DNA from: Vibrio vulnificus CMCP6
GTDB lineage: Bacteria; Pseudomonadota; Gammaproteobacteria; Enterobacterales; Vibrionaceae
Assembly (NCBI RefSeq): GCF_000039765.1
Contig: NC_004459.3
Coordinates: 360,001 to 392,000 of the forward strand
Direction of reading: 5' to 3'
Length of the DNA: 32,000 nucleotides
Shown piece by piece: positions 2,368 through 32,000 of the stretch (its first letter is position 1; every line of letters starts with the position of its first letter). Below the pieces are notes generated by a model, which was not told the origin of the DNA, did not search any database, and saw only the letters and a list, made by a program, of their open reading frames with translations. The position numbers and the translations under genes are program-made.

Positions 2368-2419
2368 TTTTACCCTTGACCGAGGGTAAAACCTTATTTA
2401 CCCTCCATAAAGGGTAAAT
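2368..2419. promoter_or_regulatory. Two tandem operator palindromes TTTACCC-N8-GGGTAAA upstream of hipB
   Basis: 2368-2391 is TTTTACCC-TTGACCGA-GGGTAAAA. 2396-2419 is ATTTACCC-TCCATAAA-GGGTAAAT. The half-site/N8/half-site geometry matches E. coli HipB operators (TATCC-N8-GGATA). They end 14 nt before the hipB ATG. Confidence 0.6.
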
Positions 2420-2432
2420 ACGAGGAATTGTT

Positions 2433-2690
2433 ATGTTGATAACATCACCAAGGCAGTTAGCAATATATCTGCGTGACGAAAGAAAACACGAGAATCTGTC
2501 GCAAGCAAAAGTTGCCGCCCCTGTTGGTCTTAAACAGGACACCATTTCTAAGTTTGAGGTTAATCCTGAAACTACAAGGATTCAGACGCTATTTCGCATC
2601 TTATCTTCTCTAAACCTTGAAATGCATATTGTTCAGAAAGGCGAAAGCATCTACTCGAAAGTTGATGATGATGGCGAAGAGAAATGGTGA
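2433..2690 (+). CDS. hipB: HipB-type XRE-family HTH antitoxin/repressor (orphan, no hipA)
   Basis: SPRQLA...LSQAKVAAPVGLKQDTISKFEVNPETTRIQTLFRILSSLNLEM aligns by eye along its length with E. coli HipB (SPTQLA...GIKQATISNFENNPDNTTLTTFFKILQSLELSM). This includes the acidic tail ending in a C-terminal Trp. Confidence 0.85.
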   Translation: MLITSPRQLAIYLRDERKHENLSQAKVAAPVGLKQDTISKFEVNPETTRIQTLFRILSSLNLEMHIVQKGESIYSKVDDDGEEKW

Positions 2691-2698
2691 GTCAAGTC

Positions 2699-2783
2699 AT
2701 TCCCACGCATGGGAATCCACCGAAGTCAGATGCTTAACGAAATCGAGTGCTGCTGGTATTGTAGCTCACAACTGGACAGAAGC
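2699..2783 (+). repeat. Solitary hairpin unit (ATTCCCACGCATGGGAAT) plus right half-unit plus trailer (TGTAGCTCACAACTGGACAGAAGC)
   Basis: The hairpin at 2699-2716 is identical to the array consensus. 2717-2759 is homologous to the array variable block (..cttaacgaaatcgagtgctgctgg..). 2760-2783 matches the trailer seen at 15281-15306 and 11946-11970. Confidence 0.7.
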
Positions 2784-2917: not shown

Positions 2918-2941
2918 GTTTGTGTTTGTGTTTGTGTTTGT
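2918..2941. repeat. Hexanucleotide microsatellite (GTTTGT)x4
   Basis: Read directly. Lies about 70 nt upstream of the 3013 start. Confidence 0.9.
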
Positions 2942-3012
2942 GACCCACTGTGATGCATATTAACCCCTATAAGTGGTAATCTAAGCAAATTTACTCATAT
3001 AGGATTTATAAA

Positions 3013-4696: not shown

Positions 4697-4715
4697 GGTC
4701 AGGTTTTGCCTTTTG
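4697..4715. repeat. Right 19-bp inverted repeat of cassette 1 (GGTCAGGTTTTGCCTTTTG)
   Basis: Inverted partner of 2850-2868 (17/19). Same orientation as 15169-15187 (17/19). Confidence 0.6.
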
Positions 4716-4731
4716 CCTTTTGCCTTTTGCC
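4704..4731. repeat. Heptanucleotide microsatellite (TTTTGCC)x4
   Basis: Read directly. It expands the outer end of the 19-bp repeat. Confidence 0.9.
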
Positions 4732-4795
4732 TGTCATTAGCTCTAGTATCATAAAAGTAGATCGTCAAGGCTTGCTATTTCTTCGACGCATACAT

Positions 4796-4847
4796 TTTGG
4801 GGCAAAGTGTGCTAGAACTGTTCGCGTGACACGCCTCTGGGCAGAAG
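4796..4847 (+). repeat. Junction-family copy a: core TTTGGGGCAAAG plus trailer-like CTCTGGGCAGAAG
   Basis: The 12-mer is identical to 7282-7293. The GGGGCAAAG-TGTG context resembles 20528-20541. The trailer resembles 15291-15303. Confidence 0.5.
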
Positions 4848-4953
4848 TAAGTTAAGATTGTCCCTTAAGCCATTGGCTTCGAATAAACTACGTTCAGGCG
4901 AATCCATATTGAAGGCTTTTCTAATGCGCCGTTGGTATGCATTCAGTGTAACA

Positions 4954-7117: not shown

Positions 7118-7281
7118 TAATATTATCCTTTAGATCTAGTTGTTGACTTATCTTACGCCCCTGACTTGAACCCAACTCTTTTTGTCCGCTTATAAGTTAG
7201 CTTAATATTCAACTAAATACATAATGAGGCGTTAGATAAACTTGGTCAAACTGAAGTGACTAGAAATGTGTCCTAAACAGG

Positions 7282-7392
7282 TTTGGGGCAAAGCTATGTT
7301 TGCCGTGATTGGCATGCTTTGTGATTGGCATGCCTAGCGAAATTGAGTGGCGCTGATTTTAAGCTACTTGCCCTATTCCCACGAATGGAAAT
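7282..7392 (+). repeat. Junction-family copy b: leader plus one (degenerate) hairpin, abutting the IS remnant
   Basis: 7282-7374 aligns with the array leader 20527-20601 at about 80 percent by eye, plus an internal ~17-nt duplication (TGATTGGCATGC twice). Hairpin 7375-7392 is ATTCCCA-CGAA-TGGAAAT (two changes). Confidence 0.7.
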
Positions 7393-7975
7393 TAACTCTT
7401 TACGCCTCTAGGCTTACCTCGTGACTCAAATGCCATAGAGAGTGCCTTTCCTGTCATCTTGCTATCGGGAGAGACTGACATCGCCCAAACAATTGGCTTT
7501 CTCGCGAATAGGTCGATGACAACAGCAAGATACATCCAGCGCTGACCTGTCCAGACATACGTCACGTCTCCTACCCAGACTTGGTTGGGAGCAGTAACGG
7601 CAAACTGTCGAGATAGATGGTTTGGGATCTCTACATGCTCTTGTGATGTTTTTCGATAACGGTGCTTCAATGTTTGGCAGCTTACCAGGCCTAATAATTT
7701 CATCACCTTAGAAGCTCGATAACGTGCCAGTTTTACACCTTGGGCCGTTACCATGTCGGCAATGCTTCTCGCACCCGCAGAGCCATTGCTTGCCGTGTGA
7801 ACTTCTTTAATGAGACTCTTGAGTTTCACCAGCTCAGGGGAAACACGTTTGGGGCGACAACGCCAGTATTTGTAGCTGCTACGCTGGACACTGAACACAT
7901 GACACAAGGTGGTTACACTAAAGCTCTGCCTGAGTTTCTCGATTATCGAGAGCTGTTCAGCGAGTCCGACATCAA
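7392..7975 (-). pseudogene. IS3-family transposase OrfB, disrupted and truncated
   Basis: The -1 frame reads [16 protein letters not shown] then a stop. The expected continuation IIEKLRQSFSVTTLCHVFSVQRSSYKYW is in another frame, which indicates an extra 1-nt indel. The first DDE Asp region (VWVGDVTYV) is present. The ORF ends at ..ESRGKPRGVKS, before the HSDQG second-Asp motif. Confidence 0.8.
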
Positions 7976-8253
7976 GAGAGCTGTAGCTTTTTTAATATTT
8001 CATTGTGCTCTTCAAGGCGTGCAAGTTTCTTCTTCAGCTCACGTATCTCAATTTGCTCTGGTGTCATAGGTGCGGCTTGGGGAGTGACTCCCTTTCTTTC
8101 TTGCTTAAGCTGCCTTACCCACTTGTCCATTGTCGATTTACCGACACCCATGGCTTTTGCAGCTTCAACAACGGTGTAGTTTTGGTCGAGCACAAGCTGT
8201 GCTGCTTCGAGTTTAAATTCTGCACTGAAAGTGCGTCTGGTACGCTTGGTCAT
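7972..8253 (-). CDS. IS3-family transposase OrfA (HTH)
   Basis: [53 protein letters not shown]...[24 protein letters not shown] closely parallels IS911 OrfA. An AGGTGA RBS precedes ATG 8253. Confidence 0.8.
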
Positions 8254-8345
8254 AGCTTCACCTGTCATGCTATGAGGTGCATCTTAACACCTCTAATCAG
8301 GTGGCCAAATTCACTATGTCACTACAAAATACAGTAAAAAAACCA

Positions 8346-11905: not shown

Positions 11906-11920
11906 CAGTTCAATTCTTAA

Positions 11921-12030
11921 CAAAGGTGTATTTTCTGTGAGCTGCGTTAGTACACCTTTGGACAGAAATGAGTTTTGGAAAATCAAACATTAGCAAATGA
12001 CTAATAACTTCAGGTATGACAAATAGCTAA
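11921..12030 (+). repeat. Junction-family copy e: CAAAGGTGT.. core remnant plus trailer (CCTTTGGACAGAAATG..)
   Basis: 11921-11941 resembles 20531-20552. 11946-12030 aligns with 15281-15365 at roughly three-quarters identity by eye. Confidence 0.55.
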
Positions 12031-12845: not shown

Positions 12846-13388
12846 ATGGCATTCGTTAGAAAATCTGGTAGAAAAACTCAAACAACTACAGAATTTGAAG
12901 ATTTGTCTACACCTGAACATCTAATAGCACTTGCTGAAGACAAGGGCTTAGAAACTGACCCTGTCAATGTATCTGAATTAGCCAAACATCTAGGGATTAC
13001 CGTTAGATACGAGCCAATGCAAGATGAAGAATCAGGCTCGCTTAAAAAGGAGAAAAAGTCAGGTAGTTGGGTAATGACCGTTAATTCATTACACCATCCG
13101 CATAGGCAAAGGTTTACAATAGCCCACGAAATTGCACATCGAATTCGTCATGCTGCTAACAATGATTGCTTTGAAGATACAACTTTCTTTAGAAATGGGG
13201 AAACAAACTGGATGGAAGCTGAGGCCAATGATTTTGCAGCCTCACTATTGATGCCTAAAGATGCTTTCGATAATTTCATAGCCAACGTATCATCAAAGGT
13301 TGAAGATGTTGCTATGCACTTCCAAGTATCTTCTCATGCAGTTCGAATTAGAGCCAAAGTTCTTGGTTATGACGGACATAATCTATGA
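12846..13388 (+). CDS. ImmA/IrrE-family (M78) zinc metallopeptidase, P4 Gop-like
   Basis: HExxH motif in FTIAHEIAHRIRH, plus the downstream family signature EAEANDFAASLLMP. Confidence 0.85.
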   Translation: MAFVRKSGRKTQTTTEFEDLSTPEHLIALAEDKGLETDPVNVSELAKHLGITVRYEPMQDEESGSLKKEKKSGSWVMTVNSLHHPHRQRFTIAHEIAHRIRHAANNDCFEDTTFFRNGETNWMEAEANDFAASLLMPKDAFDNFIANVSSKVEDVAMHFQVSSHAVRIRAKVLGYDGHNL

Positions 13389-14459
13389 GTGAATTTGTCT
13401 ATTTCCCGATCATAAAAACTAGAGATGGCGAACTCCGCTGTTTTGAACACATCAATGATGATGATTTTTCAAAGATTTTGCCAATTTACGAACTAACCAA
13501 ATCGAGAAAAACAAAAAAAGCACCTGATGGTGATATATATCGCCGTATGAAGCAAATTGCTGAAATTCAGAAGAAGCGACCATTTATACTTGATTTGAGT
13601 ACAAACGAAAAATATATCAACCCTCAGATTGAGCAATTGTTATCAGAACACAACGGCTTTAAAGAGTGGCAGTATTTTCTGTTTGATCTACATTGCGACT
13701 TAAACATCATCCCGATGGTTCACTTGTATGAAGATGATGACGGTAAGTTCGAAGACGTTGAAGAATTCGTAAGAAGTGCTTCTGCAAGAACTAATTGTCT
13801 TGCGGTTAGATTGCCATATGACTTAAGTGACGAAGAAGTTGAATATTATTTAACCCCTATAACAAGAAACCTGAACGAAAATTGTAAACTCTACGTAATT
13901 CTAGATGCTGAATTCGTAAGAAAGAAAGCCATTAATGATGTAGTTGATACTTTCCTTGAAGCATGCTCGGGTACGGAGTCTTTCGCTGATAAAATAGAAG
14001 ACGTTGTAATGCTCTGCTCTAGTTTCCCATCGAATGTTGCTCAAACTGGTGGCGAAGCATATTGCAGGTGAGTTTAGAATCTGTGAAGAAGATATCTATC
14101 AGGGTATTAGTGAAGAGTTCCCAATCAAATATGGCGACTACGTTTCAATTAACACCGAACAAATTGAAATGAAAGGCGGTACTTTTGTACCTAGGATTGA
14201 TATTGCATCTTTAGACGGAAAATCGTTCACCTATAAAAGATACCGTCGAAACAATGGTGGGTATGTTAGAGCCGCAGAGCACACCGTCAGAGATACAACA
14301 TCATATAAGCCGCTTGGAGTGTGGGCTGATGAAGAGATCCAAGCAGCAGCAAATGATAATCCATCAGGTATTAGCCCTGCATTTTGGATATCAGTTCGCA
14401 TGAACTACTACATTAAAAGTCGAATTTTACTCAGAGAATCAGACGATTCTTCGTTTTAG
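13385..14459 (+). pseudogene. Beta-protein family (phage P4 Beta-like, PF14350-type) gene split by a frameshift near 14050-14070
   Basis: The N-terminus FVYFPIIKTRDGELRCFEHI is the typical Beta-family start (YxPILKxxxGExxAL). ORF 13385-14071 and ORF 14034-14459 are adjacent frames that join as ..CSSFPSNVAQTGGEA / IAGEFRICEEDIY..YGDY.. The combined ~358 aa fits the family length. An ATGA overlap links it to the peptidase gene. Confidence 0.65.
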
Positions 14460-15187: not shown

Positions 15188-15254
15188 ACTCTTATTACTT
15201 TTTGTATATCAAAGTTGACTGAGTATCATTGTGTGATTTGAAGGCGTAACTAAT

Positions 15255-15365
15255 TTTGGGGCATTTTCGTGTTTCATGCCCTGTAGCACACTCTTGGACA
15301 GATACGTGTTTCGGGTAATCGAATATTAGCAATTCACGAATAACTATAAGTATGGAAAGTGCTTT
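15255..15365 (+). repeat. Junction-family copy c: core TTTGGGGCA plus trailer (CTGTAGCACACTCTTGGACAGATACG..)
   Basis: The core is shared with 4796, 7282 and 20527. The trailer is homologous to 11946-12030 and 2760-2783. Confidence 0.55.
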
Positions 15366-18201: not shown

Positions 18202-19721
18202 GATCTAGCCTTTAAAATGTCTAATGACTCACGATAGTGGCTTTTTAACTTCCTAGGTGAACCTTCTATAAGTTCAATATCAACATTAGGTAGGTTATCA
18301 ATATTCAAGTGTCTGTTTATTATATTGTCTAATTCAATTAGATCTTCTTTATTCCAGTAACCAAGAGAGAATATACTAAAGTTGTCTGATATCTTTTCAA
18401 ACTCCGTTCCAACTAGAGAGTCAGGCTCAAATATAGAAGATAATACTAGTTTGAAATTTTTAATTTCTTTTAATTTTACCAATATAGAATAGATGCATTG
18501 CGAAAATTCTTTAAACGCACAATGATCACTGATTGGTATTTCCTCAATGAATAAAACAAAACTATCAGATTTACATTTGTCTCGTATGATTAACTCTATA
18601 TTATTTAAAATTACAGATATTCGTTCAGACTCATTGATTATGACATTTTCATCGAGATCGTAGGCAATACTTGTAAACATTTGTTGAATGTTTTCATTTA
18701 TAGATGTACCTAAAGAAATATATTGAAAGTCAACTCCGTTTTTGAATAACAGTCTTTGAATAATAGCAGTTTTTCCAACACCAGATGGGCCACAAATCCA
18801 TAGTCCTGATAATCTGAATTTATTTAAAACTATTTGGTCTACATCTCTATGTAGGTAGAAATTTTCTTGATTAGGGGTATATAAATCGAAAAGGACATCT
18901 TCCTTGGAGTCATCTGTTTTTGCTGATGAACTTGTTAACTTTATTTTGCAGAAGTCATTTCTTTCAATAAAACCCCAGAGTGCTTTGTGTGATTGGCTAT
19001 CTTCATTTTCTGGCTTTACGATAGATGAATGATCTGTTCCTGCTATAAGTTTAGCTTTACCAAAGTAGCGTGCGGCTGACTCCTTGGATACAACTCGGTG
19101 TTTTGAATGATTTAACAAGGTCAAATGAAAAGGAGACCTATTTTCATAGCACTCTAAACCGACAATATCAAGCTTAGATGATTGCAATAACTCTTTAAAT
19201 CTACCATCAAGATCATCTAATAATGCACTTCCCCAAGCTAGTTCTTGAGCTAGTTGGTTTTTGAATCGTTTTGCAATCCAACCGAAGCTAGATGCCATCC
19301 GTGAGCCAAAAGAAGGAGATGCATATAGTGCCAATCCAATTTTCTTTCCAACAAATTTGTCTGATTTTGACTCTAAAATATACCTTGCAATTATTCCACC
19401 AGTACTGTGAGTTACGAAAATGATATTACTTTTACTTAGAGCTGGACTTCTCATGTGTTTGTCGGTTTGGCTAATGTGATCCCAAACTTCGTCTGAGCAG
19501 TTTTGAACTCCATAATCATTTGAGTCTATTGATGTATAAAAGTTGGCTAGAAATATATCAATTCCATTAAATCTAGGATCGCTTGCGATTAAGTCAGGCC
19601 AGTAGCGCTGATTCTTATCGTTGAACCAGCATTTTTTACTACTAGAAAATAATCCATGGATAAATATTATGACAGTGTTACTGTTTGAGTACCTTAACCA
19701 ACCATTTTCTTGGACGTTCAA
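18198..19721 (-). CDS. Alpha/beta-hydrolase (DUF676/lipase-like) fused to a P-loop NTPase, 507 aa, TTG start
   Basis: VIIFIHGL (oxyanion region). FVTHSTGG nucleophile elbow (Ser106). GTDHSSIV (His231). Then GPSGVGKT (Walker A, 311-318) and FVLFIEEI (Walker B-like). The stop overlaps the next gene's start (ATGA at 18198-18201). Confidence 0.8.
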   Translation of the reverse strand: MNVQENGWLRYSNSNTVIIFIHGLFSSSKKCWFNDKNQRYWPDLIASDPRFNGIDIFLANFYTSIDSNDYGVQNCSDEVWDHISQTDKHMRSPALSKSNIIFVTHSTGGIIARYILESKSDKFVGKKIGLALYASPSFGSRMASSFGWIAKRFKNQLAQELAWGSALLDDLDGRFKELLQSSKLDIVGLECYENRSPFHLTLLNHSKHRVVSKESAARYFGKAKLIAGTDHSSIVKPENEDSQSHKALWGFIERNDFCKIKLTSSSAKTDDSKEDVLFDLYTPNQENFYLHRDVDQIVLNKFRLSGLWICGPSGVGKTAIIQRLLFKNGVDFQYISLGTSINENIQQMFTSIAYDLDENVIINESERISVILNNIELIIRDKCKSDSFVLFIEEIPISDHCAFKEFSQCIYSILVKLKEIKNFKLVLSSIFEPDSLVGTEFEKISDNFSIFSLGYWNKEDLIELDNIINRHLNIDNLPNVDIELIEGSPRKLKSHYRESLDILKARS

Positions 19722-19846
19722 AATATGCCTTAAAGCTTTGATTTTTAATTATGATACAGCGCTCGCATCAATAAAATCAATAAACAGTGTCAGTCCTGTT
19801 TAACAATTCTTAAATTTCATTATTTAAGGAAAAATGCGTTAGGTCA

Positions 19847-20345
19847 TCAAGATTCCACTCTAATCGCTCTATGTAGGGCTGTAACACCCCTGTCAAAATC
19901 CTTACCATATCTATCAAAAACAATTGAGCCATTCTCACGCCCAACATTGCCCTGTACAAAGCAGCTCTCAACGGTGGAGTCTTGCTTTAAGTAGCTGATA
20001 AAATTATGTAAAAAAAATAAAAGTCATGCCCCTTGTCAAAACTAAGATTTGATTTAAATAGAGCAAACCAATTCGAAGCGTTACCACCTAATCCATTTGT
20101 TTTCTGCATAGAGTAGTTCTGGGAAAATTCCCTCTTCATTTGATGCCACATAATCTAAAAAGCCTAATTCGATTAGCTTTGAATGGATTGGGACTAAACG
20201 TCTAGCTGAATCATTTTCTAGTCTCTGGCCTTCAAGAGTGTCAGAGAAGCTAAGACAGCAAATATTGTCGTCTTTTTGTATGTCTGTACAGTGATGCTGT
20301 GCTAGCTTATTGAGTCTTGCACCAGAGAGTTCTCTCTGAAATTAG
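19847..20345 (-). pseudogene. Tyrosine recombinase (phage-type integrase) remnant, C-terminal catalytic domain only, at least 2 frameshifts
   Basis: Minus-strand frames read SGARLNKLAQHHCTDI..SARRLVPIHSKLIELGFLDYV..IFPELLY, then GGNASNWFALFKSNLSFDKGH, then FLHNFISYLKQDSTVESCFVQGNVGRENGSIVFDRYGKDF. This is the R..(VPIH)..HxxR..Y integrase pattern, with stops between segments and substitutions at catalytic positions (HNF instead of RHTF; GR instead of GH). Confidence 0.75.
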
Positions 20346-20526
20346 ATTTTATAGTCTTTATTATTGCAGGTAAGTAGATAAGTACTCGACAAGTAAACTG
20401 AAGGTTTTCGGAATCTCTTTTGCGCCCCCTAAGATAAAGATACTTTTAACCGTCGATTTCGAATAACTTTTTGTAGGGCAATTGCACATTAACAAGATAT
20501 TAATGAGTAATAGCACTAAGCAGAAA

Positions 20527-21691
20527 TGGGGCAAAGGTGTGTTTGCTATGATCGGCATGCTTTGCGAAATTAAGTGGCACTGATTTGAGATTAACTACCC
20601 CATTCCCACGCATGGGAATCAGTCAGAATCGGCATACTCAATGAAACCGAGAGTCGCTGATGTGAAGTTGACTCCCCCATTCCCATGCATGGGAATCAAC
20701 CTAGATCGGCATCGTCAGTGGAAACCTGTGCCGCTGATGTGAAGTTGACTACTCCATTCCCACGTATGGGAACCAACCTAGATCGTTATGGTCAACGAAA
20801 TCCAGTGCCGCTGATTTGAAGTTGGCTACTCCATTCCCACGCATGGGAATCAGTCAGAATCGGCAGGTCAATAAAATCGAGAGCCGCTGATGTGAAGTTG
20901 ACTACCCTATTCCCACGCATGGGAATCAGTCAGAATCGACAGGTCAATGAAATCGAGAGCCGCTGATGTGAAGTTGACTCCCCCATTCCCATGCATGGGA
21001 ATCAACCTAGATCGGCATCGTCAGTGGAAACCTGTGCCGCTGATGTGAAGTTGACTACTCCATTCCCACGTATGGGAATCAACCTAGATCGTTATGGTCA
21101 ACGAAATCCAGTGCCGCTGATTTGAAGTTGGCTACTCCATTCCCACGCATGGGAATCAGTCAGAATCGGCAGGTCAATAAAATCGAGAGCCGCTGATGTG
21201 AAGTTGACTACCCTATTCCCACGCATGGGAATCAACCTAGATCGGTATCGTCAGTGAAAACCAGTGCCACTGATTTGAGTTAGTTACTCTATTCCCACGC
21301 ATGGGAATCAGTCAGAATCGACAGGTCAATGAAATCGAGAGCCGCTGATGTGAAGTTGACTCCCCCATTCCCATGCATGGGAATCAACCTAGATCGGCAT
21401 CGTCAGTGAAAACCAGTGCCACTGATTTGAAGTTGGCTACTCCATTCCCACGCATGGGAATCAGTCAGAATCGGCAGGTCAATGAAATCGAGAGTCGCTG
21501 ATGTGAAGTTGACTACCCCATTCCCACGCATGGGAATCAGCCATGTTCGGCATACTCAATGAAATCCAGTGCCGCTGATGTGAAGTTGACTCCCCCATTC
21601 TCACGCATGGGAATCAACCTAGATCGTTATGGTTAACGAAATCAAGTGCCGCTGATTTGAAGTTAGCTGCTCTATTCCCACGTATGGGATT
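20527..21691 (+). repeat. Leader (20527-20601) plus tandem array of 15 hairpin-bearing 76-77 bp units
   Basis: Hairpins ATTCCCA-YGYA-TGGGAAT start at 20602, 20679, 20756, 20833, 20909, 20985, 21062, 21139, 21215, 21291, 21367, 21444, 21520, 21597 and 21674. The conserved block is CGCTGATKTGAAGTTGRCT. 20679-20928 is repeated at 20985-21234 with one mismatch. Confidence 0.95.
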
Positions 21692-21927
21692 GCTTTATTC
21701 TAGGTTATTCATATTACTGTTGCGCTGTAAAAGCCTACACCTTTAAATTCAACTCGAATGTAAACTGTAAATTATAGATAAAAAGTAACACCACTACCTT
21801 TCATTAAATTATTATTCAATATAACACATTACATTATTGCCACATGGCAAAGAAATATATCATTAAAACAAATCAACAATAGCCCCTCACTACCACACTA
21901 AAAACAAGAAACATAAAGCATTAAAAC

Positions 21928-21986: not shown

Positions 21987-22697
21987 ATGAACAATAAAGT
22001 TAAAGATATCATTGATAATATATTAAAAAACATTTTCAACCATTTAGCGACAAGAAATTCATTCACTCTTTACTACAATGAAGTTTTTCAAGAGTTAGAA
22101 ATATCACTTGCTCAAGATATACCTAACCCCAACATCTCTTATCCCGCAATTAACTCAATATACTTAACAGAACACTGGCAAAACAAAGGAGTTTTGAACT
22201 ATTTAGTAGAGCGGTTACTTGAGCTAGAGTGGGTAAATGGTGTTGCAATTCAATCAATAACCAACCCAATTTTAGGAATGAGCTTGCTACACAACCCCAA
22301 ATGGATTCCGATTATAAATACTAACCAGTTTCATCGGCTGGATCGAATTATCCCGCTCGTGAGAGATAATAAAGAATACTACGATTTATTTTTACAAACA
22401 TTCGAAAAGAAAAGGCCTGCATTCAGTACATTAGATCTATCTATACTAAAAGAAAGTTATATAAGAGTTACTAGTAGAAAAGAAACAGACATACCGTATC
22501 TAACAGATGACCAACTATGTGGATTCGCTCCAGAATATGATGGTACTTCGCTAATAAAACTACCAGAGTGTCATTATAATAATTATAAAAATCAAATCAC
22601 AGCATTAGCTGAAAATCACGGTATATCAGCGCATCACTACATCGGTATGTCTAAATTTTTTGATAGTTTTATAACTTTAAAAAACCCACGTAGTTAA
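21987..22697 (+). CDS. Hypothetical protein (236 aa), no recognisable motif
   Basis: Single ORF lying between the array end and the solitary hairpin at 22828. Very AT-rich. Confidence 0.6.
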   Translation: MNNKVKDIIDNILKNIFNHLATRNSFTLYYNEVFQELEISLAQDIPNPNISYPAINSIYLTEHWQNKGVLNYLVERLLELEWVNGVAIQSITNPILGMSLLHNPKWIPIINTNQFHRLDRIIPLVRDNKEYYDLFLQTFEKKRPAFSTLDLSILKESYIRVTSRKETDIPYLTDDQLCGFAPEYDGTSLIKLPECHYNNYKNQITALAENHGISAHHYIGMSKFFDSFITLKNPRS

Positions 22698-22827
22698 ACT
22701 ATGTTATAAAAAAGTAAAAACGAATAAAACTCACCTTATTTAAGGCATTAACATTTCGTATAAGTAACGCAATATCAGTTGAGATCACTTCCGATTTTAG
22801 GAATGGCAATTACAGCTAGCTAGTTCA

Positions 22828-22845
22828 TTCCCATGCATGGGAATG
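22828..22845. repeat. Solitary hairpin ATTCCCATGCATGGGAAT with left half-unit only
   Basis: Identical to the array B-type hairpin. The left flank ccgattttag..gctagctagttc loosely matches the unit's ctgatttgaagttggctactcc. The right flank GGCTTATTC resembles the array's terminal flank TGCTTTATTC (21692). Confidence 0.75.
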
Positions 22846-23015: not shown

Positions 23016-23289
23016 TGTCATCTAAGGAGATAACATTGTAAGACCTAAGCGATGGCTAGAGCTGAAGAAGCCTTGAAAGATTGCTCTGTCAGTTCTGCCC
23101 CCAAGTTACTTAGAGTAGATGCTCTTTACTCAACCTATAAATACTTAGTGACCGACGTTTTCTAATGTAAGATTTTAAATTTAATTCGGTCACCGATAAG
23201 CCTAAATGGGCCACAAAAGCAAGGCCTGATTTTGTCTTGTTTGTTACCACTCCTTGGGAGTATCTTAGCGGTGGATTGGAACTCTTATG

Positions 23290-26091: not shown

Positions 26092-26138
26092 CAAGTTGAC
26101 AGAAGCGAGCATCCGTCTAGCTCGCTTCTGTCAACTTG
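26092..26138. repeat. Perfect 19-bp inverted repeat with 9-nt loop between convergent genes
   Basis: CAAGTTGACAGAAGCGAGC-atccgtcta-GCTCGCTTCTGTCAACTTG. No T-run on either side. Confidence 0.9.
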
Positions 26139-29955: not shown

Positions 29956-30125
29956 TTTAAAAACTGCCTTTCCCTCTATGGGGATTATAATTATATTTAT
30001 ACTTTACCCTCTCAGCATAAGTGAATTATTTTCACTTTACAAGTTACAATCTTATAAATTAACTATTTTTATTAATATAGAAATTAAAGGTTAGTTGATT
30101 ATTATTTTATTATACATGAGTAGCT

Positions 30126-30297
30126 GGTTTTTATTTTATGCAAAATGCTTCGCATGTTTGCTTGCTCTATCGGTTGTTTACTTGTTACTTGTTTTTTTAT
30201 TCACACTAACCTATGGACTATGTAGTGTTGATTTATATATAAAATAAGTAAAACATAGTCCACACCTCAAACCTTATCTAGCAAGGCTTTAAGGCAG
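30126..30297 (+). repeat. Copy 1 of a ~170 bp direct repeat (origin-like), containing a 10-bp inverted repeat around an AT-rich core
   Basis: Aligns with 30627-30803 (offset 506-507) at high identity by eye. TGGACTATGT (30214-30223) and ACATAGTCCA (30253-30262) flank 29 nt of AT-rich DNA. Confidence 0.85.
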
Positions 30298-30626: not shown

Positions 30627-30803
30627 GGTTTTGATTATATTTAAATGCAAAATTCTTCGCATGTTTGCTTATTCTATCTGTTCTTACCTTCTGGATGCTT
30701 TTTTATTCACACTAAACTATGGACTATGTAATGTTGATTTATATATAAAATAAGTAAAACATAGTCCATGCCTAAGCCCTTATCTAGCAAGGCTTCAAAG
30801 CGA
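30627..30803 (+). repeat. Copy 2 of the ~170 bp direct repeat
   Basis: Same internal TGGACTATGT..ACATAGTCCA inverted repeat and the same ..CTAGCAAGGCTT.. end. Confidence 0.85.
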
Positions 30804-31065: not shown

Positions 31066-31341
31066 ATGATGAGACAAGTCAAGAAGCAGAGCGAGAAGCT
31101 CGGTCGCACAAGTCGAGCAAAAATGCTTCGTCTTGCTGATGTAGTTAGAACGGTAAGAATTCGACTTGAAGAAGTTAAAGACAAGCAATTAGACAAGTTA
31201 GATCGTTTATCAGATCATTTGCTAGATCGTGTTAAAATCACAAGCCCTAGCAATCTTGAGATTCAGATCTCGGTTCAGTTCCCCATTACACAGTTGAATC
31301 GGAAAAAAACAATGTGGGGAACATCAAAAAAATGCAATTAA
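31066..31341 (+). CDS. Doubtful ORF (91 aa)
   Basis: No convincing RBS. The basic, low-complexity sequence may be non-coding. Confidence 0.2.
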   Translation: MMRQVKKQSEKLGRTSRAKMLRLADVVRTVRIRLEEVKDKQLDKLDRLSDHLLDRVKITSPSNLEIQISVQFPITQLNRKKTMWGTSKKCN

Positions 31342-31467
31342 ATCATCTCTTTTGACTACTGTTCCCCAATTTGTTCCCCAGCTCACTCACTTGCAAATAA
31401 ATACAAATAAAAACAACAACTTAAACACCTCATTCAGAGTACGCCAGCTCCACCAAACGTTTGGAAA

Positions 31468-31499
31468 GGGCGATAACTCTTTGAGTTATCGCCCTTTTT
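31468..31499 (+). terminator. Strong Rho-independent terminator
   Basis: GGGCGATAACTC-TTT-GAGTTATCGCCC followed by TTTTT. Confidence 0.75.
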
Positions 31500-31785
31500 G
31501 TATTCTGTCTCTCAATAACTGGCTATGAGTACTAAAACAAGGTACTAAACGATGCACTACCTGAGCCTTTCAACATCTGGTAACTGGTACTTTCACGACC
31601 AAAATATCGTCACCTCTTTGTTCACCATACTGAAGTCAAACAGTCGCTACGTACCTAATCAAACATACCCTACGTAAGAGAAAGGAGACCGGCCTTGGAA
31701 TCATTGGCGATTTCAAGACCTACGTCAAAAATTAATAAATAGTTCCATCCATTCTGTTCATCAACAATTTGGGCTTACAGATTAC

Positions 31786-31883
31786 GAGTAATTATTTACT
31801 CACAAAGAGTCTCGCCACATACTTATGAGTAAATAGTTACTCATAAGTTGAAAGATAGGAACTTTAAGAGTAAAGTTTTACTC
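31786..31883. promoter_or_regulatory. Three operator palindromes GAGTAA-N4-TTACTC spaced exactly 41 bp apart
   Basis: 31786-31801 is GAGTAATTATTTACTC. 31827-31842 is GAGTAAATAGTTACTC, which extends to 11-bp arms over 31822-31847. 31868-31883 is GAGTAAAGTTTTACTC. The last ends 24 nt before ATG 31907. Confidence 0.6.
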
Positions 31884-31906
31884 ATTGATAAGTAGAGGTG
31901 TTGTTG

Positions 31907-32000
31907 ATGGAAGAACTAACCGTACAAGCTTTTATCAGAAGTGAATGGATAGACATTGGTATCATCTCATTCCCAAAAAGTAGCCAACATAATTTCCGAG
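31907..32000 (+). CDS. Start of an ORF running off the window (MEELTVQAFIRSEWIDIG..)
   Basis: GAGGTG RBS 7 nt upstream. Open to the window end. Confidence 0.45.
   Translation, partial: MEELTVQAFIRSEWIDIGIISFPKSSQHNFR

What the first reader, a model, noticed from the sequence alone, without database searches (positions are those of the whole stretch)
20527..21691. Fifteen tandem 76-77 bp units, each with a perfect 7-bp-stem hairpin, showing higher-order (306 bp) duplication
**Unit structure.** Each unit is ATTCCCA-YGYA-TGGGAAT + C + a ~32-nt variable block + the conserved block CGCTGATKTGAAGTTGRCTMCYCC.

**Why it is not CRISPR.** The variable blocks fall into mutually homologous subtypes, so they are diverged copies of one sequence rather than spacers:
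- A: cagtcagaatcggcaggtcaatgaaatcgagag
- B: caacctagatcggcatcgtcagtggaaacctgtg
- C: caacctagatcgttatggtcaacgaaatccagtg

**Evidence of ongoing unequal exchange.** 250 nt at 20679-20928 recur at 20985-21234 with one mismatch (a 4-unit offset). The unit at 20909 is identical to the unit at 21291.

**Extended pairing.** The hairpin flanks can pair further (TGACT/AGTCA in A units, GTTGA/TCAAC in B/C units, outer GCCG/CGGC) with bulged bases, giving an imperfect hairpin of about 58 nt. Each unit also holds a near-complementary GGTCAAY ... AGTTGRC pair, reminiscent of integron attC R''/R' boxes (RYYYAAC/GTTRRRY) but imperfect.

**Context.** No ORF is present. The array starts right next to a decayed integrase.

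**Competing explanations:**
1. An array of folded-DNA recombination sites (empty cassettes).
2. A sopC-like plasmid centromere (F sopC is 12 x 43 bp, each with 7-bp inverted repeats). No parAB is in this window.
3. A REP/BIME-like element.
4. A structured-RNA array.
Basis: partly seen in the sequence, partly recalled or inferred. Interest (0 to 1): 0.85.

Follow-up and report, generated by a model that had tools for sequence, protein, structure and literature searches.

The report
Palindrome repeat array bordering island cargo
A real, length-variable run of 77-bp repeats, each carrying the same 18-bp palindrome, is a fixed non-coding landmark at the edge of the gene-swapping hotspot of a family of mobile Vibrio defence islands; what it does is unproven, and it matches none of the known repeat systems I could test it against.

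Summary
Positions 20527-21691 hold a leader, 14 full 76-77-bp units and a terminal degenerate hairpin. The array is identical in two assemblies of Vibrio vulnificus CMCP6.

The same array sits at the same place in nine other island copies from V. vulnificus and V. parahaemolyticus. Eight are complete and hold 3-15 units, in shuffled order and with mosaic units. That pattern indicates unequal exchange, not an assembly artefact.

The host element is a mobilizable defence island inserted next to smpB/ssrA. The repeat tract starts 8 nt after an orphan hipB-like gene. The main cargo hotspot has opened inside the tract, so one hairpin plus 60 nt stay with hipB and the rest lies in front of a conserved GNAT-like gene.

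- It is not CRISPR, not a known Rfam RNA and not a genome-wide REP.
- It is not coupled to the GNAT-like gene elsewhere, and no par genes are present.
- attC features are not met.
- Pairing beyond the 7-bp core shows no covariation.

My best guess, at low confidence, is a cluster of palindromic protein-binding sites on double-stranded DNA in a divergent intergenic gap. A functionless satellite and an integrase docking tract remain serious rivals.

The parts
20527..20601 (+). Leader. It consists of the left half of a junction element (GGGGCAAAGGTGTGTTTGCTATGATCGGCATGC) followed by a partial unit (20548-20601).
   Evidence: Homology between islands with different cargo begins exactly at 20527. 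nhmmer matches unit positions 24-77 here.
20602..21673 (+). Fourteen full units of 76-77 bp. Each is ATTCCCA-N4-TGGGAAT plus 58-59 bp.
21674..21701 (+). Terminal degenerate hairpin ATTCCCACGTATGGGATT, whose final TT opens the T-rich run TTGCTTTATT (terminator-like on the + strand).
   Evidence: Terminator-like hit. The same ending is found in all nine arrays examined.
20655..21234 (+). Recent four-unit (306-bp) duplication: 20655-20928 matches 20961-21234 with one mismatch.
   Evidence: The duplication is absent from V. vulnificus GCA_965140105.1 (L012).
2699..2758 (+). Solitary hairpin plus the first ~60 nt of a unit, starting 8 nt after the stop codon of the hipB-like gene. This is the detached left end of the repeat tract.
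   Evidence: It is present at the same place in all 13 related loci. In L054 the tract after hipB has two hairpins and 1.6 units.
2433..2690 (+). Orphan hipB-like HTH gene (85 aa) of the island backbone.
   Evidence: Pfam HTH_3. A homolog sits in a true hipBA operon in Photobacterium.
7273..7396 (+). Decayed second copy of leader, partial unit and hairpin (ATTCCCACGAATGGAAAT) at an internal cargo junction. It abuts a truncated IS3-type transposase gene.
22827..22844 (.). Solitary perfect palindrome ATTCCCATGCATGGGAAT, 130 nt downstream of the GNAT-like gene.
   Evidence: It is conserved in the five other islands checked.
21987..22697 (+). Conserved backbone gene of 236 aa with a GNAT-like N-terminal fold, about 300 bp downstream of the array.
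   Evidence: AlphaFold2 with alignment A3 gave pLDDT 86.7. All top Foldseek PDB hits are GNAT acetyltransferases. Pfam Acetyltransf_1 is a weak hit in 2 of 12 homologs.
19847..20345 (-). Frameshifted C-terminal half of a tyrosine recombinase, at the right end of the cargo next to the array.
   Evidence: Three-frame translation shows the motif VPIHSKLIELGFLDYV.
20458..20526 (+). Cargo-end sequence. It is shared with another island (L022) and with intergenic DNA of Vibrio plasmids, and it contains the inverted repeat CACATTAA-N7-TTAATGAG.
4794..4854 (+). Complete junction element (TTTGGGGCAAAG...CTCTGGGCAGAAG) between cargo modules.
11920..11975 (+). Complete junction element immediately after umuC.
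   Evidence: It is found after the umuC gene (in L029, a truncated copy) in every related locus that carries one.
15252..15311 (+). Complete junction element between cargo modules.

Best explanation
**What it is (shown).** The array is the expanded part of a conserved non-coding tract. The tract belongs to the backbone of a family of mobilizable defence islands of Vibrio that integrate next to smpB/ssrA.

The backbone order is int, alpA, an H-NS-like gene, a relaxase, a hipB-like gene, cargo hotspot 1, the array, a GNAT-like gene, hotspot 2 and a Rep gene.

The 77-bp unit is an 18-bp palindrome (ATTCCCA-N4-TGGGAAT) plus 59 bp. The tract begins 8 nt after the orphan hipB-like gene.

The main cargo hotspot has opened inside the tract. 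One hairpin plus 60 nt stay with hipB (2699-2758). The rest (20548-21691) lies on the far side of about 18 kb of defence cargo. There it sits in a gap between a leftward cargo gene and the rightward GNAT-like gene.

**How it changes (shown).** Unequal homologous exchange between units changes copy number (3-15), shuffles unit order and creates mosaic units.

**What it does (inferred, low confidence).** It acts as double-stranded DNA, as a cluster of identical binding sites for a dimeric DNA-binding protein. This would be operator-style or centromere-style binding.

Each site would have conserved 7-bp half-sites and a free 4-bp centre. Single sites of the same kind mark two other backbone positions.

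The binding protein has not been identified.
For: **Structure and evolution.**
- The array has the same position, leader and terminal hairpin in V. vulnificus and V. parahaemolyticus islands that carry six different cargos.
- Homology starts exactly at 20527.
- In L054 the hairpin-unit-hairpin tract abuts hipB directly.
- The 306-bp block is polymorphic between two V. vulnificus genomes.
- Of 81 units, 38 are distinct, and their order is shuffled between islands.

**Function.**
- The palindrome arms are almost invariant: 78 of 92 hairpins are perfect. None of the 14 arm positions is polymorphic at a minor-allele frequency of 0.08 or more, against roughly a third of the remaining unit positions.
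- The 4-nt centre varies freely: CGCA, TGCA, CGTA, CGGA, and TGCG or CGCG in L054.
- Nothing beyond the 7-bp core shows covariation.
- No promoter is predicted to read into the array.
- In all six distinct cargos the adjacent gene points away from the array, so the array is not obviously transcribed.
- The island's own hipB promoter carries two palindromes of the same style, TACCC-N8-GGGTA (conserved). This shows that such sites are in use on this element.
- The array palindrome reads ATTCC-N8-GGAAT, the spacing I recall for the E. coli HipB operator TATCC-N8-GGATA (from memory, not tested).
Against: - No binding protein is identified.
- The hipB promoter palindromes have a different half-site, so HipB itself is not an obvious ligand.
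- No ParA or ParB was detected.
- A period of 76-77 bp is not in helical phase.
- Arrays of 3 and 6 units exist, so a high copy number is not essential.
- Apart from the palindrome arms, the spread of variable positions along the unit is not clearly non-random, so constraint on the rest of the unit is unproven.
- Two arm variants are T.G on the + strand. That would also fit a folded + strand.
- Candidate helices P1' and P2 pair better on the + strand than on the minus strand (87-91% against 59-77%).
- A neutral satellite that carries along one pre-existing functional hairpin explains most of the same facts.
Confidence: 0.35

Rival explanations
1. A functionless satellite (VNTR). A segment of the border sequence that held one functional hairpin was amplified by slippage or unequal crossing-over. 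It persists because it is harmless, and perhaps because its ~1 kb of shared sequence helps islands swap cargo by homologous recombination.
For: - Copy number ranges from 3 to 15, and unit order is scrambled.
- A 306-bp block is polymorphic within the species.
- No covariation is seen.
- There is no Rfam hit and no promoter.
- Islands with 3 or 6 units exist.
Against: - All eight complete arrays retain at least 3 units, and six have 10 or more. Bacterial repeats are generally thought to collapse through deletion (background knowledge, not tested here).
- Unit types about 25% apart are kept across two species.
- The palindrome arms are far less variable than the rest of the unit.
Confidence: 0.3
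2. A docking tract for recombination. The units, or the junction sequence they flank, are target sites for tyrosine recombinases carried by cargo modules. This would make the island a platform that captures whole defence systems, functionally like an integron but with unrelated sites.
For: - The hotspot lies inside the repeat tract, with sharp borders at ...CTGGACA| and |GGGGCAAAGG.
- The cargo is flanked by an imperfect ~18-30-bp direct repeat of unit sequence (GAAATCGAGTGCTGCTG against GAAATTAAGTGGCACTG).
- Junction elements of about 55 nt, all in the same orientation and imperfectly palindromic, separate the modules.
- A decayed integrase lies at the cargo end next to the array.
- An ATTAGGAAA-like motif recurs near both cargo ends.
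Against: - Crossover points are not at the palindrome, and they are not uniform. In L054 the break comes after GAAATCGAG; the umuDC module boundary lies about 50 nt beyond its junction element.
- Most cargos carry no integrase.
- Site-specific recombination does not explain why sites would be tandemly repeated 10-15 times.
- No attC signature is present.
Confidence: 0.15
3. An RNA element. The array is transcribed, originally as the 3' untranslated region of hipB, and its hairpins act as RNA: stabilisers or attenuators as with REPs, a protein sponge, or a repeat RNA antitoxin.
For: - The solitary hairpins lie just downstream of + strand genes.
- In L054 the tract follows hipB directly.
- The last hairpin is followed by a T-rich run.
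- Candidate helices pair better on the + strand, through G.U pairs.
- The layout of repeats, then a terminator-like end, then a gene resembles type III toxin-antitoxin loci.
Against: - No Rfam family matches and no promoter is predicted.
- The flanking genes are divergent.
- Single-unit folds are not better than shuffles (z from +1.0 to -1.7).
- No covariation is seen.
- The neighbouring protein is GNAT-like, not a ToxN, AbiQ, CptN or TenpN nuclease.
- Its 68% and 40% homologs show no such array in the upstream sequence available (595 nt and 378 nt).
Confidence: 0.1
4. A single-stranded-DNA signal. The hairpins fold while the island travels as single-stranded DNA during relaxase-mediated mobilisation or during replication. 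They would serve as priming or origin-like signals (ssi/sso-like, or crr-like for the Rep protein).
For: - The island encodes a MobA/VirD2-type relaxase and a replication protein (phrog_4913).
- The units can form imperfect hairpins of about 58 nt.
Against: - The extended hairpin has no covariation support.
- No motif of 8 nt or more is shared between the array and the repeats next to the rep gene.
- The array lies about 19 kb from the relaxase gene in this window.
Confidence: 0.07

Closest known systems
REP/BIME arrays of enterobacteria (tandem clusters of palindromic intergenic units)
   Same: Both are non-coding, hairpin-capable units of tens of bp. Both are tandemly amplified to about a dozen copies in intergenic DNA, vary in copy number between strains and lie next to the 3' ends of genes.
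   Different: BIMEs alternate REPs in inverted orientation and occur at hundreds of sites across the chromosome. They are tied to RAYT transposases. Here all units are direct, the element is confined to one island family, and no Y1 transposase was detected.
F plasmid sopC centromere (12 x 43 bp, each with a 7-bp inverted repeat bound by SopB). Described from memory.
   Same: Both are direct tandem repeats that each carry a short perfect inverted repeat with 7-bp arms, and both sit on a mobile replicon.
   Different: No ParA/SopA or ParB/SopB gene appears in any island copy. The unit is nearly twice as long. The sequences are unrelated. The copy number is highly unstable.
Integron cassette arrays and attC sites
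   Same: Both involve imperfect palindromes at the boundaries of exchangeable gene modules, a decayed tyrosine recombinase nearby, and modules and junctions in a consistent orientation.
   Different: There are no R''/R' boxes of the attC type at the ends of a 57-141-nt site, and no evidence of extrahelical bases. No IntI-type integrase was identified; the only adjacent recombinase is a frameshifted fragment that was not classified. The modules are multi-gene systems, and the units contain no cassette.
HipB operators (E. coli TATCC-N8-GGATA, from memory)
   Same: The palindrome reads ATTCC-N8-GGAAT, with the same TCC-N8-GGA spacing. The island encodes a HipB homolog, and its own promoter has two TACCC-N8-GGGTA palindromes.
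   Different: The half-site differs from the island's own predicted operators. The sites lie downstream of hipB, not upstream, and are repeated up to 15 times at 77-bp spacing.
Type III toxin-antitoxin loci (ToxI repeats upstream of toxN)
   Same: Both have a tandem non-coding repeat, then a terminator-like hairpin, then a gene, within a phage-defence setting.
   Different: ToxI-type units are about 34-45 nt and nearly identical, and are read from a promoter. The partner is an endoribonuclease. Here the partner is GNAT-like, it lies 300 bp away, and its homologs lack the array.
tmRNA-targeting defence islands (intY and alpA elements; PMC12595487)
   Same: The host element integrates next to smpB/ssrA, encodes a P4-type integrase and AlpA, and carries variable defence cargo.
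   Different: A term search of that paper's main text found no 'tandem repeat', 'hairpin' or 'palindrom', and the Vibrio islands also carry a relaxase and a Rep protein.

Membership tests
CRISPR array | Conserved repeats separated by unrelated spacers of foreign origin | tested here: not met
   The 'spacer' blocks fall into a few mutually homologous, mosaic types that recur within and between arrays.
CRISPR array | cas genes nearby | tested here: not met
   No Cas domain was found in the Pfam and PADLOC scans of the larger ORFs of the window, or in the gene tables of related loci.
Integron attC site array | R'' (RYYYAAC) and R' (GTTRRRY) boxes at the ends of an imperfect palindrome of 57-141 nt | tested here: not met
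   The only AAC/GTT pair (GGTCAAY...GTTGRCT) spans 38 nt and matches each box imperfectly. The 58-nt hairpin ends in GCTGAT/ATCGGC.
Integron attC site array | Folded structure maintained in evolution | tested here: not met
   P2 pairs at 87.3% against a shuffled mean of 87.1% (503 of 1000 shuffles as good). The extended hairpin pairs at 84.1% against 85.2%.
Integron attC site array | IntI integrase with attI next to the array | tested here: inconclusive
   The only adjacent recombinase is a frameshifted C-terminal fragment. It was not scanned against any family and the IntI-specific insertion was not examined. No attI-like site was sought.
sopC/parS-type plasmid centromere | Tandem repeats that each hold a short inverted repeat | tested here: met
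   There are 15 copies of ATTCCCA-N4-TGGGAAT at 76-77-bp spacing.
sopC/parS-type plasmid centromere | A cognate ParA/ParB-type partition operon on the same element | tested here: not met
   No ParA/CbiA or ParBc domain appears in the window or in the backbone gene tables of 14 related loci.
sopC/parS-type plasmid centromere | Binding by the partition protein, and incompatibility or stabilisation activity | not testable with these tools
   This needs EMSA, ChIP or plasmid-stability assays.
REP/BIME | Many copies dispersed through intergenic regions of the chromosome | tested here: not met
   An exact scan of one genome per species (185,579) found the palindrome only in the homologous island of Vibrio sp. 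EA2, plus chance matches. That collection should include V. vulnificus and V. parahaemolyticus representatives, and none of the nine matching loci came from either. Nothing was found in plasmids or phages.
REP/BIME | Alternating inverted orientation of palindromic units in clusters | tested here: not met
   All units are direct repeats.
Known structured RNA (Rfam 15) | A match to a curated covariance model | tested here: not met
   There were no hits at gathering score across the window. The best E-value hits in the array region were 0.67 and worse, to unrelated miRNA and snoRNA models.
Type III toxin-antitoxin (ToxIN-like) | An adjacent endoribonuclease toxin of the ToxN, AbiQ, CptN or TenpN type | tested here: not met
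   The neighbour has a GNAT-like fold and gave no PADLOC hit.
Type III toxin-antitoxin (ToxIN-like) | The repeat array is co-inherited with the toxin gene | tested here: not met
   Homologs at 68% and 40% identity show no array in the upstream sequence available: 595 nt to the contig end in L045, and the whole 378-nt intergenic gap in L042.
Bacterial minisatellite / VNTR | Head-to-tail units whose number varies between isolates | tested here: met
   Full-unit counts are 14, 10, 6, 3, 12, 14, 12, 11 and 15 (nhmmer; a regex split gives 12, 11 and 9 for three of these). A 306-bp block is polymorphic within V. vulnificus.
HipB operator | A palindrome of the TATCC-N8-GGATA type upstream of hipB, bound by HipB | tested here: inconclusive
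   The spacing TCC-N8-GGA is met. However, the half-site differs from the two TACCC-N8-GGGTA palindromes in the hipB promoter, and the sites are not upstream of hipB. Binding is untested.

The most novel reading that the evidence does not exclude
The repeat tract and the ~55-nt junction elements together form the recombination platform of an integron-like system that uses sites unrelated to attC. In this reading, tyrosine recombinases carried by cargo dock whole defence systems into a tandem run of landing sites behind hipB. That would explain the same-orientation junction elements, the sharp borders, and the consistent outward orientation of the cargo next to the array.
Probability: 0.12. Interest if true: 0.85.

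Novelty: new variant of a known kind. Interest (0 to 1): 0.5.

Why it matters
Defence islands swap their cargo quickly, and what defines their hotspots is mostly unknown. In this case one hotspot border is a precise, conserved, repetitive non-coding structure rather than a gene.

If the array binds a protein or serves as a docking tract, it would be a cis-acting part of how Vibrio islands capture and exchange anti-phage systems.

In practical terms:
- It is a strain-typing marker of variable length.
- Short-read assemblies break at it. Eight Logan contigs carrying the GNAT-like gene begin within about 530 bp upstream of it, at or inside the array.
- Its leader and terminal sequences are handy anchors for finding this island family and delimiting its cargo.

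Tried and rejected
**RNA and tRNA searches.**
- Rfam at gathering score and at E-value thresholds gave nothing relevant.
- ARAGORN found no tRNA or tmRNA. The tRNA-like unit length of 76-77 nt looks like a coincidence.

**Similarity searches for the unit.**
- BLAST against PLSDB plasmids and INPHARED phages found no match to the unit. Only the 70-100 nt upstream of the array matched intergenic DNA of Vibrio plasmids.
- Exact scans of genomes, metagenomes and IMG/VR found only the island family (L005, L054) plus chance palindromes and an unrelated repeat in L049.

**Hypotheses tested and dropped.**
- Type III TA: the neighbour is GNAT-like, and its homologs show no array in the available upstream sequence.
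- Iteron or crr for the Rep protein: no k-mers are shared with the repeats next to rep.
- Extended hairpin, P1' and P2 helices: no covariation.
- Single-unit folding: not significant on either strand.
- A promoter inside each unit: the TTGACT hexamer has no usable -10 partner, and the scan found no promoter.
- Derivation of the unit from the 5' coding sequence of hipA: the alignment is suggestive only for the ~20 nt before the left border and is not convincing.
- The array sitting in the loop of a final junction element: supported only by a 9-mer (TACACCTTT at about 21735) that can pair with 20531-20540.

- A literature search for the palindrome string returned nothing.
Full report
**1. The observation**

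Tandem Repeats Finder reports one array at 20566-21689. It has period 77, 14.7 copies, 80% matches and a score of 1289. The same array also scores at periods 153 and 306 (87% matches, score 1635).

Anchoring on the hairpin gives 14 full units of 76 or 77 bp between 20602 and 21673. A 54-nt partial unit (20548-20601) precedes them, and a terminal hairpin (21674-21691) follows.

- 20679-20928 and 20985-21234 differ at a single base. The duplication is really 274 nt long (20655-20928 against 20961-21234).
- The units at 20909 and 21291 are identical.

Three of the 15 hairpins are not perfect: those at 20756, 21597 and 21674.

No ORF longer than 37 aa lies in the array. The 'decayed integrase' is real. 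Pieces from the reading frames of the minus strand at about 19847-20345 assemble into the C-terminal half of a tyrosine recombinase, and they include the motif VPIHSKLIELGFLDYV.

**2. Source and reality of the array**

The window is 99.995% identical to CP037931.1, which PMC6639608 identifies as V. vulnificus CMCP6. The only difference over 20 kb is one extra base at 14058, so the window comes from a separate assembly. The array is identical in both.

Another V. vulnificus genome (L012) has 10 units and lacks exactly the 306-bp block. That record contains Ns.

Eight Logan short-read contigs that carry the downstream gene begin within about 530 bp upstream of it, at or inside the array.

The copy number is therefore a real, variable property.

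**3. The element that carries it**

I looked up exact and related copies of the gene just downstream of the array and of the HTH gene at 2433-2690. This recovered 14 related loci from V. parahaemolyticus, V. vulnificus and relatives.

They share a backbone. In order it runs:
- smpB, with ssrA expected between it and int, although I did not locate ssrA in any locus;
- a P4-type integrase with an arm-binding domain;
- AlpA;
- an H-NS-like protein;
- a 250-aa protein;
- a MobA/VirD2 relaxase;
- a 259-aa protein;
- the HTH gene;
- a variable region;
- the array;
- a conserved 236-aa gene;
- a second variable region;
- small ORFs;
- a protein of about 830 aa that matches a phage replication family.

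The variable regions hold defence systems. These include:
- OLD/Gabija-like nucleases;
- PD-Lambda-2-like genes;
- SIR2-HerA;
- Lit-type peptidase;
- HEPN and DUF4238 proteins;
- an nSTAND ATPase;
- restriction-modification systems;
- UmuDC.

Islands at the tmRNA gene that carry an integrase, AlpA and defence cargo are a described class (PMC12595487).

**4. Position of the array within the island**

BLAST between islands shows that conserved sequence stops at window position 2781 and resumes at exactly 20527. It stops again at 23101 and resumes near 26120.

Alignment of the right border in nine arrays shows that every cargo, whatever it is, ends immediately before GGGGCAAAGGTGTG. The left border is equally sharp: the conserved sequence ends at ...GTAGCTCACAACTGGACA.

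A solitary hairpin plus the first 60 nt of a unit sits 8 nt after the stop codon of the HTH gene in the window and in all 13 related loci where that region is held.

In a more distant relative (L054, an IMG/VR contig) the HTH gene is followed directly by hairpin, full unit, hairpin and partial unit.

Taken together, the repeat tract belongs behind the HTH gene, and the cargo hotspot lies inside it. The 2699 copy and the 20548-21691 array are two ends of one tract.

The cargo is flanked by an imperfect direct repeat of unit sequence (GAAATCGAGTGCTGCTG and GAAATTAAGTGGCACTG). It is also flanked by the two halves of a ~55-nt imperfect palindrome, which I call a junction element: TTTGGGGCAAAGGTGTG...CACACCTYTGGACAG.

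Complete copies of this element lie between cargo modules at 4794, 11920 and 15252. They are always in the same orientation, and one follows umuC in every island that has umuC.

**5. The HTH gene**

The HTH gene is hipB-like. A 66%-identical homolog in Photobacterium overlaps a full hipA. A 76%-identical homolog in another Vibrio island type is followed by a 56-aa hipA remnant.

In this island family hipA is gone, and the repeat tract starts where hipA would start.

The hipB promoter carries two palindromes, TTTTACCC-N8-GGGTAAAA at 2368-2391 and TTTACCC-N8-GGGTAAA at 2397-2418. Their centres differ while their half-sites are conserved in L005 and L054.

**6. How the array evolves**

The eight complete arrays give 81 units, of which 38 are distinct. 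Copy numbers are 14, 10, 6, 3, 12, 12-14, 11-12, 9-11 and 15; the ranges reflect two counting methods.

The leader and the terminal hairpin with its flank are the same in every array, and the last unit comes in three variants. The interior order is scrambled.

Many units are mosaics of a few block variants. For example, L022 unit 4 joins an A-type left half to a B/C-type right half.

This is the signature of repeated unequal homologous exchange.

**7. Structure tests**

The 7-bp core is nearly invariant. Seventy-eight of 92 hairpins are perfect. The centres are CGCA (62), TGCA (18), CGTA (11) and CGGA (1), with TGCG and CGCG in L054.

None of the 14 arm positions is polymorphic at a minor-allele frequency of 0.08 or more. 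Roughly a third of the remaining unit positions are.

No arm shows a compensatory double change. Two variants are T.G on the + strand and three break a pair.

The extended 58-nt hairpin was tested on 38 distinct hairpin-centred junctions. It pairs in 84.1% of cells against 85.2% after shuffling partners, and its covariation score is below the shuffle mean. Real combinations of flanks are therefore no better paired than random ones.

On the minus strand the figures are 59% and 77%. Again neither exceeds shuffles: 503 and 329 of 1000 shuffles were as good.

Single units do not fold better than shuffled sequence on either strand (z from +1.0 to -1.7).

The only structure the data support is the 18-bp palindrome itself. 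The data cannot say whether it acts as a duplex site or as a hairpin.

**8. Known kinds excluded**

- **CRISPR.** The 'spacers' are homologous to one another, and no cas gene was detected.
- **Rfam.** There is no match.
- **REP/BIME in the strict sense.** The palindrome is absent from the representative genomes of 185,579 species except the homologous island of Vibrio sp. EA2. It is also absent from plasmids and phages.
- **attC.** The box sequences, site length and evidence for folding are all missing.
- **sopC-like centromere.** The repeat style fits, but no partition genes are present.
- **Type III toxin-antitoxin.**
  - The neighbouring 236-aa protein models confidently with an alignment (pLDDT 86.7).
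  - All its top structural matches are GNAT acetyltransferases, including TacT and AtaT. Its motif is QNKGxFNYLV.
  - Its 68% and 40% homologs sit in other contexts, with no such array in the upstream sequence available (595 nt and 378 nt).
  - The array therefore goes with the island, not with that gene.
- **Rep iterons.** No k-mers are shared with the direct repeats upstream of rep.

**9. What it most likely does**

The array lies in a gap between genes that point away from it. In the window and in all six distinct cargos the nearest cargo gene is on the minus strand, and the GNAT-like gene is on the plus strand. No promoter is predicted to read into it.

That argues against an RNA role and against a role as a read-through barrier. 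It favours a DNA-level role.

A perfect 18-bp palindrome with fixed 7-bp arms and a free 4-bp centre is what a dimeric DNA-binding protein recognises. The same element already uses palindromes of this style at the hipB promoter. Read as ATTCC-N8-GGAAT, the site has the spacing I recall for the E. coli HipB operator TATCC-N8-GGATA.

I therefore commit, at about one chance in three, to a cluster of protein-binding sites of the operator or centromere type. Single sites of the same kind occur behind hipB and behind the GNAT-like gene.

The steps that are shown are the anatomy, the distribution, the mode of evolution and the constraint on the arms. The steps that are inferred are binding, the identity of the protein and any consequence of binding.

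Almost as likely is that the tract is a harmless satellite built around one functional hairpin.

The most interesting alternative is that the tract and the junction elements are the docking sites of a capture system for whole defence modules. The sharp borders, the flanking direct repeat, the same-orientation junction elements and the decayed integrase at the cargo end all point that way. Against it, the breakpoints are not uniform, and tandem repetition itself is not explained.

**10. Novelty and score**

I found no description of this array. The palindrome string is absent from the paper library, and a term search of the paper on tmRNA-linked defence islands found no mention of tandem repeats, hairpins or palindromes.

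It is a new variant of a known kind, namely tandem palindromic intergenic repeats on a mobile element. It is notable for marking a cargo hotspot border.

It would interest specialists in mobile elements and phage defence, but its function is open. Interest: 0.5.

Noticed in passing
window 4794-4854, 11920-11975, 15252-15311 (complete); 20527-20560 and 7283-7320 (left halves); 2760-2781 (right half): A ~55-nt imperfect palindrome (TTTGGGGCAAAGGTGTG...CACACCTYTGGACAG) recurs between cargo modules. It is always in the + orientation, and a copy follows umuC in every related island that has umuC. One stem change looks compensatory (GGTGTG/CACACC against GGTGTA/TACACC). It resembles an att-type or cassette-boundary site.
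   Followed up: partly
L002:4071-6230 (V. campbellii pVIBHAR) and L034:~18300-20085: In L002 a group II intron (Rfam D1-D4-7 and domain V/VI hits, ltrA RT) is inserted exactly after ...GAGGGG, the point that corresponds to window 20530/20531 at the start of the array leader. In L034 an RT/maturase gene lies immediately upstream of the leader, but the insertion point was not read. The cargo-end/junction boundary seems to be a homing site.
   Followed up: partly
window 2368-2391 and 2397-2418: Two palindromes, TTTTACCC-N8-GGGTAAAA and TTTACCC-N8-GGGTAAA, lie upstream of the orphan hipB-like gene. Their half-sites are conserved and their centres vary in L005 and L054. They are probably HipB autoregulatory operators.
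   Followed up: partly
window 14058: The window has one extra base relative to CP037931.1. It splits the Beta-protein gene (357 aa in L012 and L013) into ORFs 13385-14071 and 14034-14459. This is either a sequencing error in one assembly or a real frameshift in a PD-Lambda-2-like defence module.
   Followed up: partly
window 7392-8337: An IS3-family transposase (rve and HTH_21 domains) appears truncated at its 3' end, exactly where the decayed hairpin copy ends (7396). This suggests recombination at the hairpin border.
   Followed up: no
window 30125-30295 and 30632-30801: Two direct repeats of about 170-180 bp (74-91% identical), 506 bp apart, lie in the AT-rich region upstream of the ~830-aa replication gene. 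They may be the island's origin or a regulatory region. They share no motif with the array.
   Followed up: partly
window 20458-20526; L001:4001-4100; L022:9080-9152: The ~70 nt to the left of the array leader is 76-85% identical to intergenic DNA on several Vibrio plasmids. It contains the inverted repeat CACATTAA-N7-TTAATGAG, which could be a core site for a tyrosine recombinase.
   Followed up: partly
window 31066-32000: A second, apparently intact hipBA-like pair lies at the right end of the window: a 91-aa ORF followed by a HipA_C gene that is 453-456 aa in L012 and L013. Its upstream region has a perfect 9-bp-arm palindrome, GTTAACTGC-AAA-GCAGTTAAC.
   Followed up: no
window 23085-23110: The left border of the second cargo hotspot (23101) carries CTTGGGGGCAGAACTGACAGAG on the minus strand. 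This resembles the TTTGGGGCA start of the junction element, but inverted.
   Followed up: no
L049:941-1216 (metagenome contig Ga0209230_10178819): An unrelated dense run of TCTTCCCATATATGGGAAG-type palindromes, about 38 bp apart, turned up in the palindrome-pair scan.
   Followed up: no
window 2918-2942 and 4704-4732: Perfect microsatellites (GTTTGT)x4 and (TTTTGCC)x4 lie in cargo intergenic regions close to the hotspot borders.
   Followed up: no
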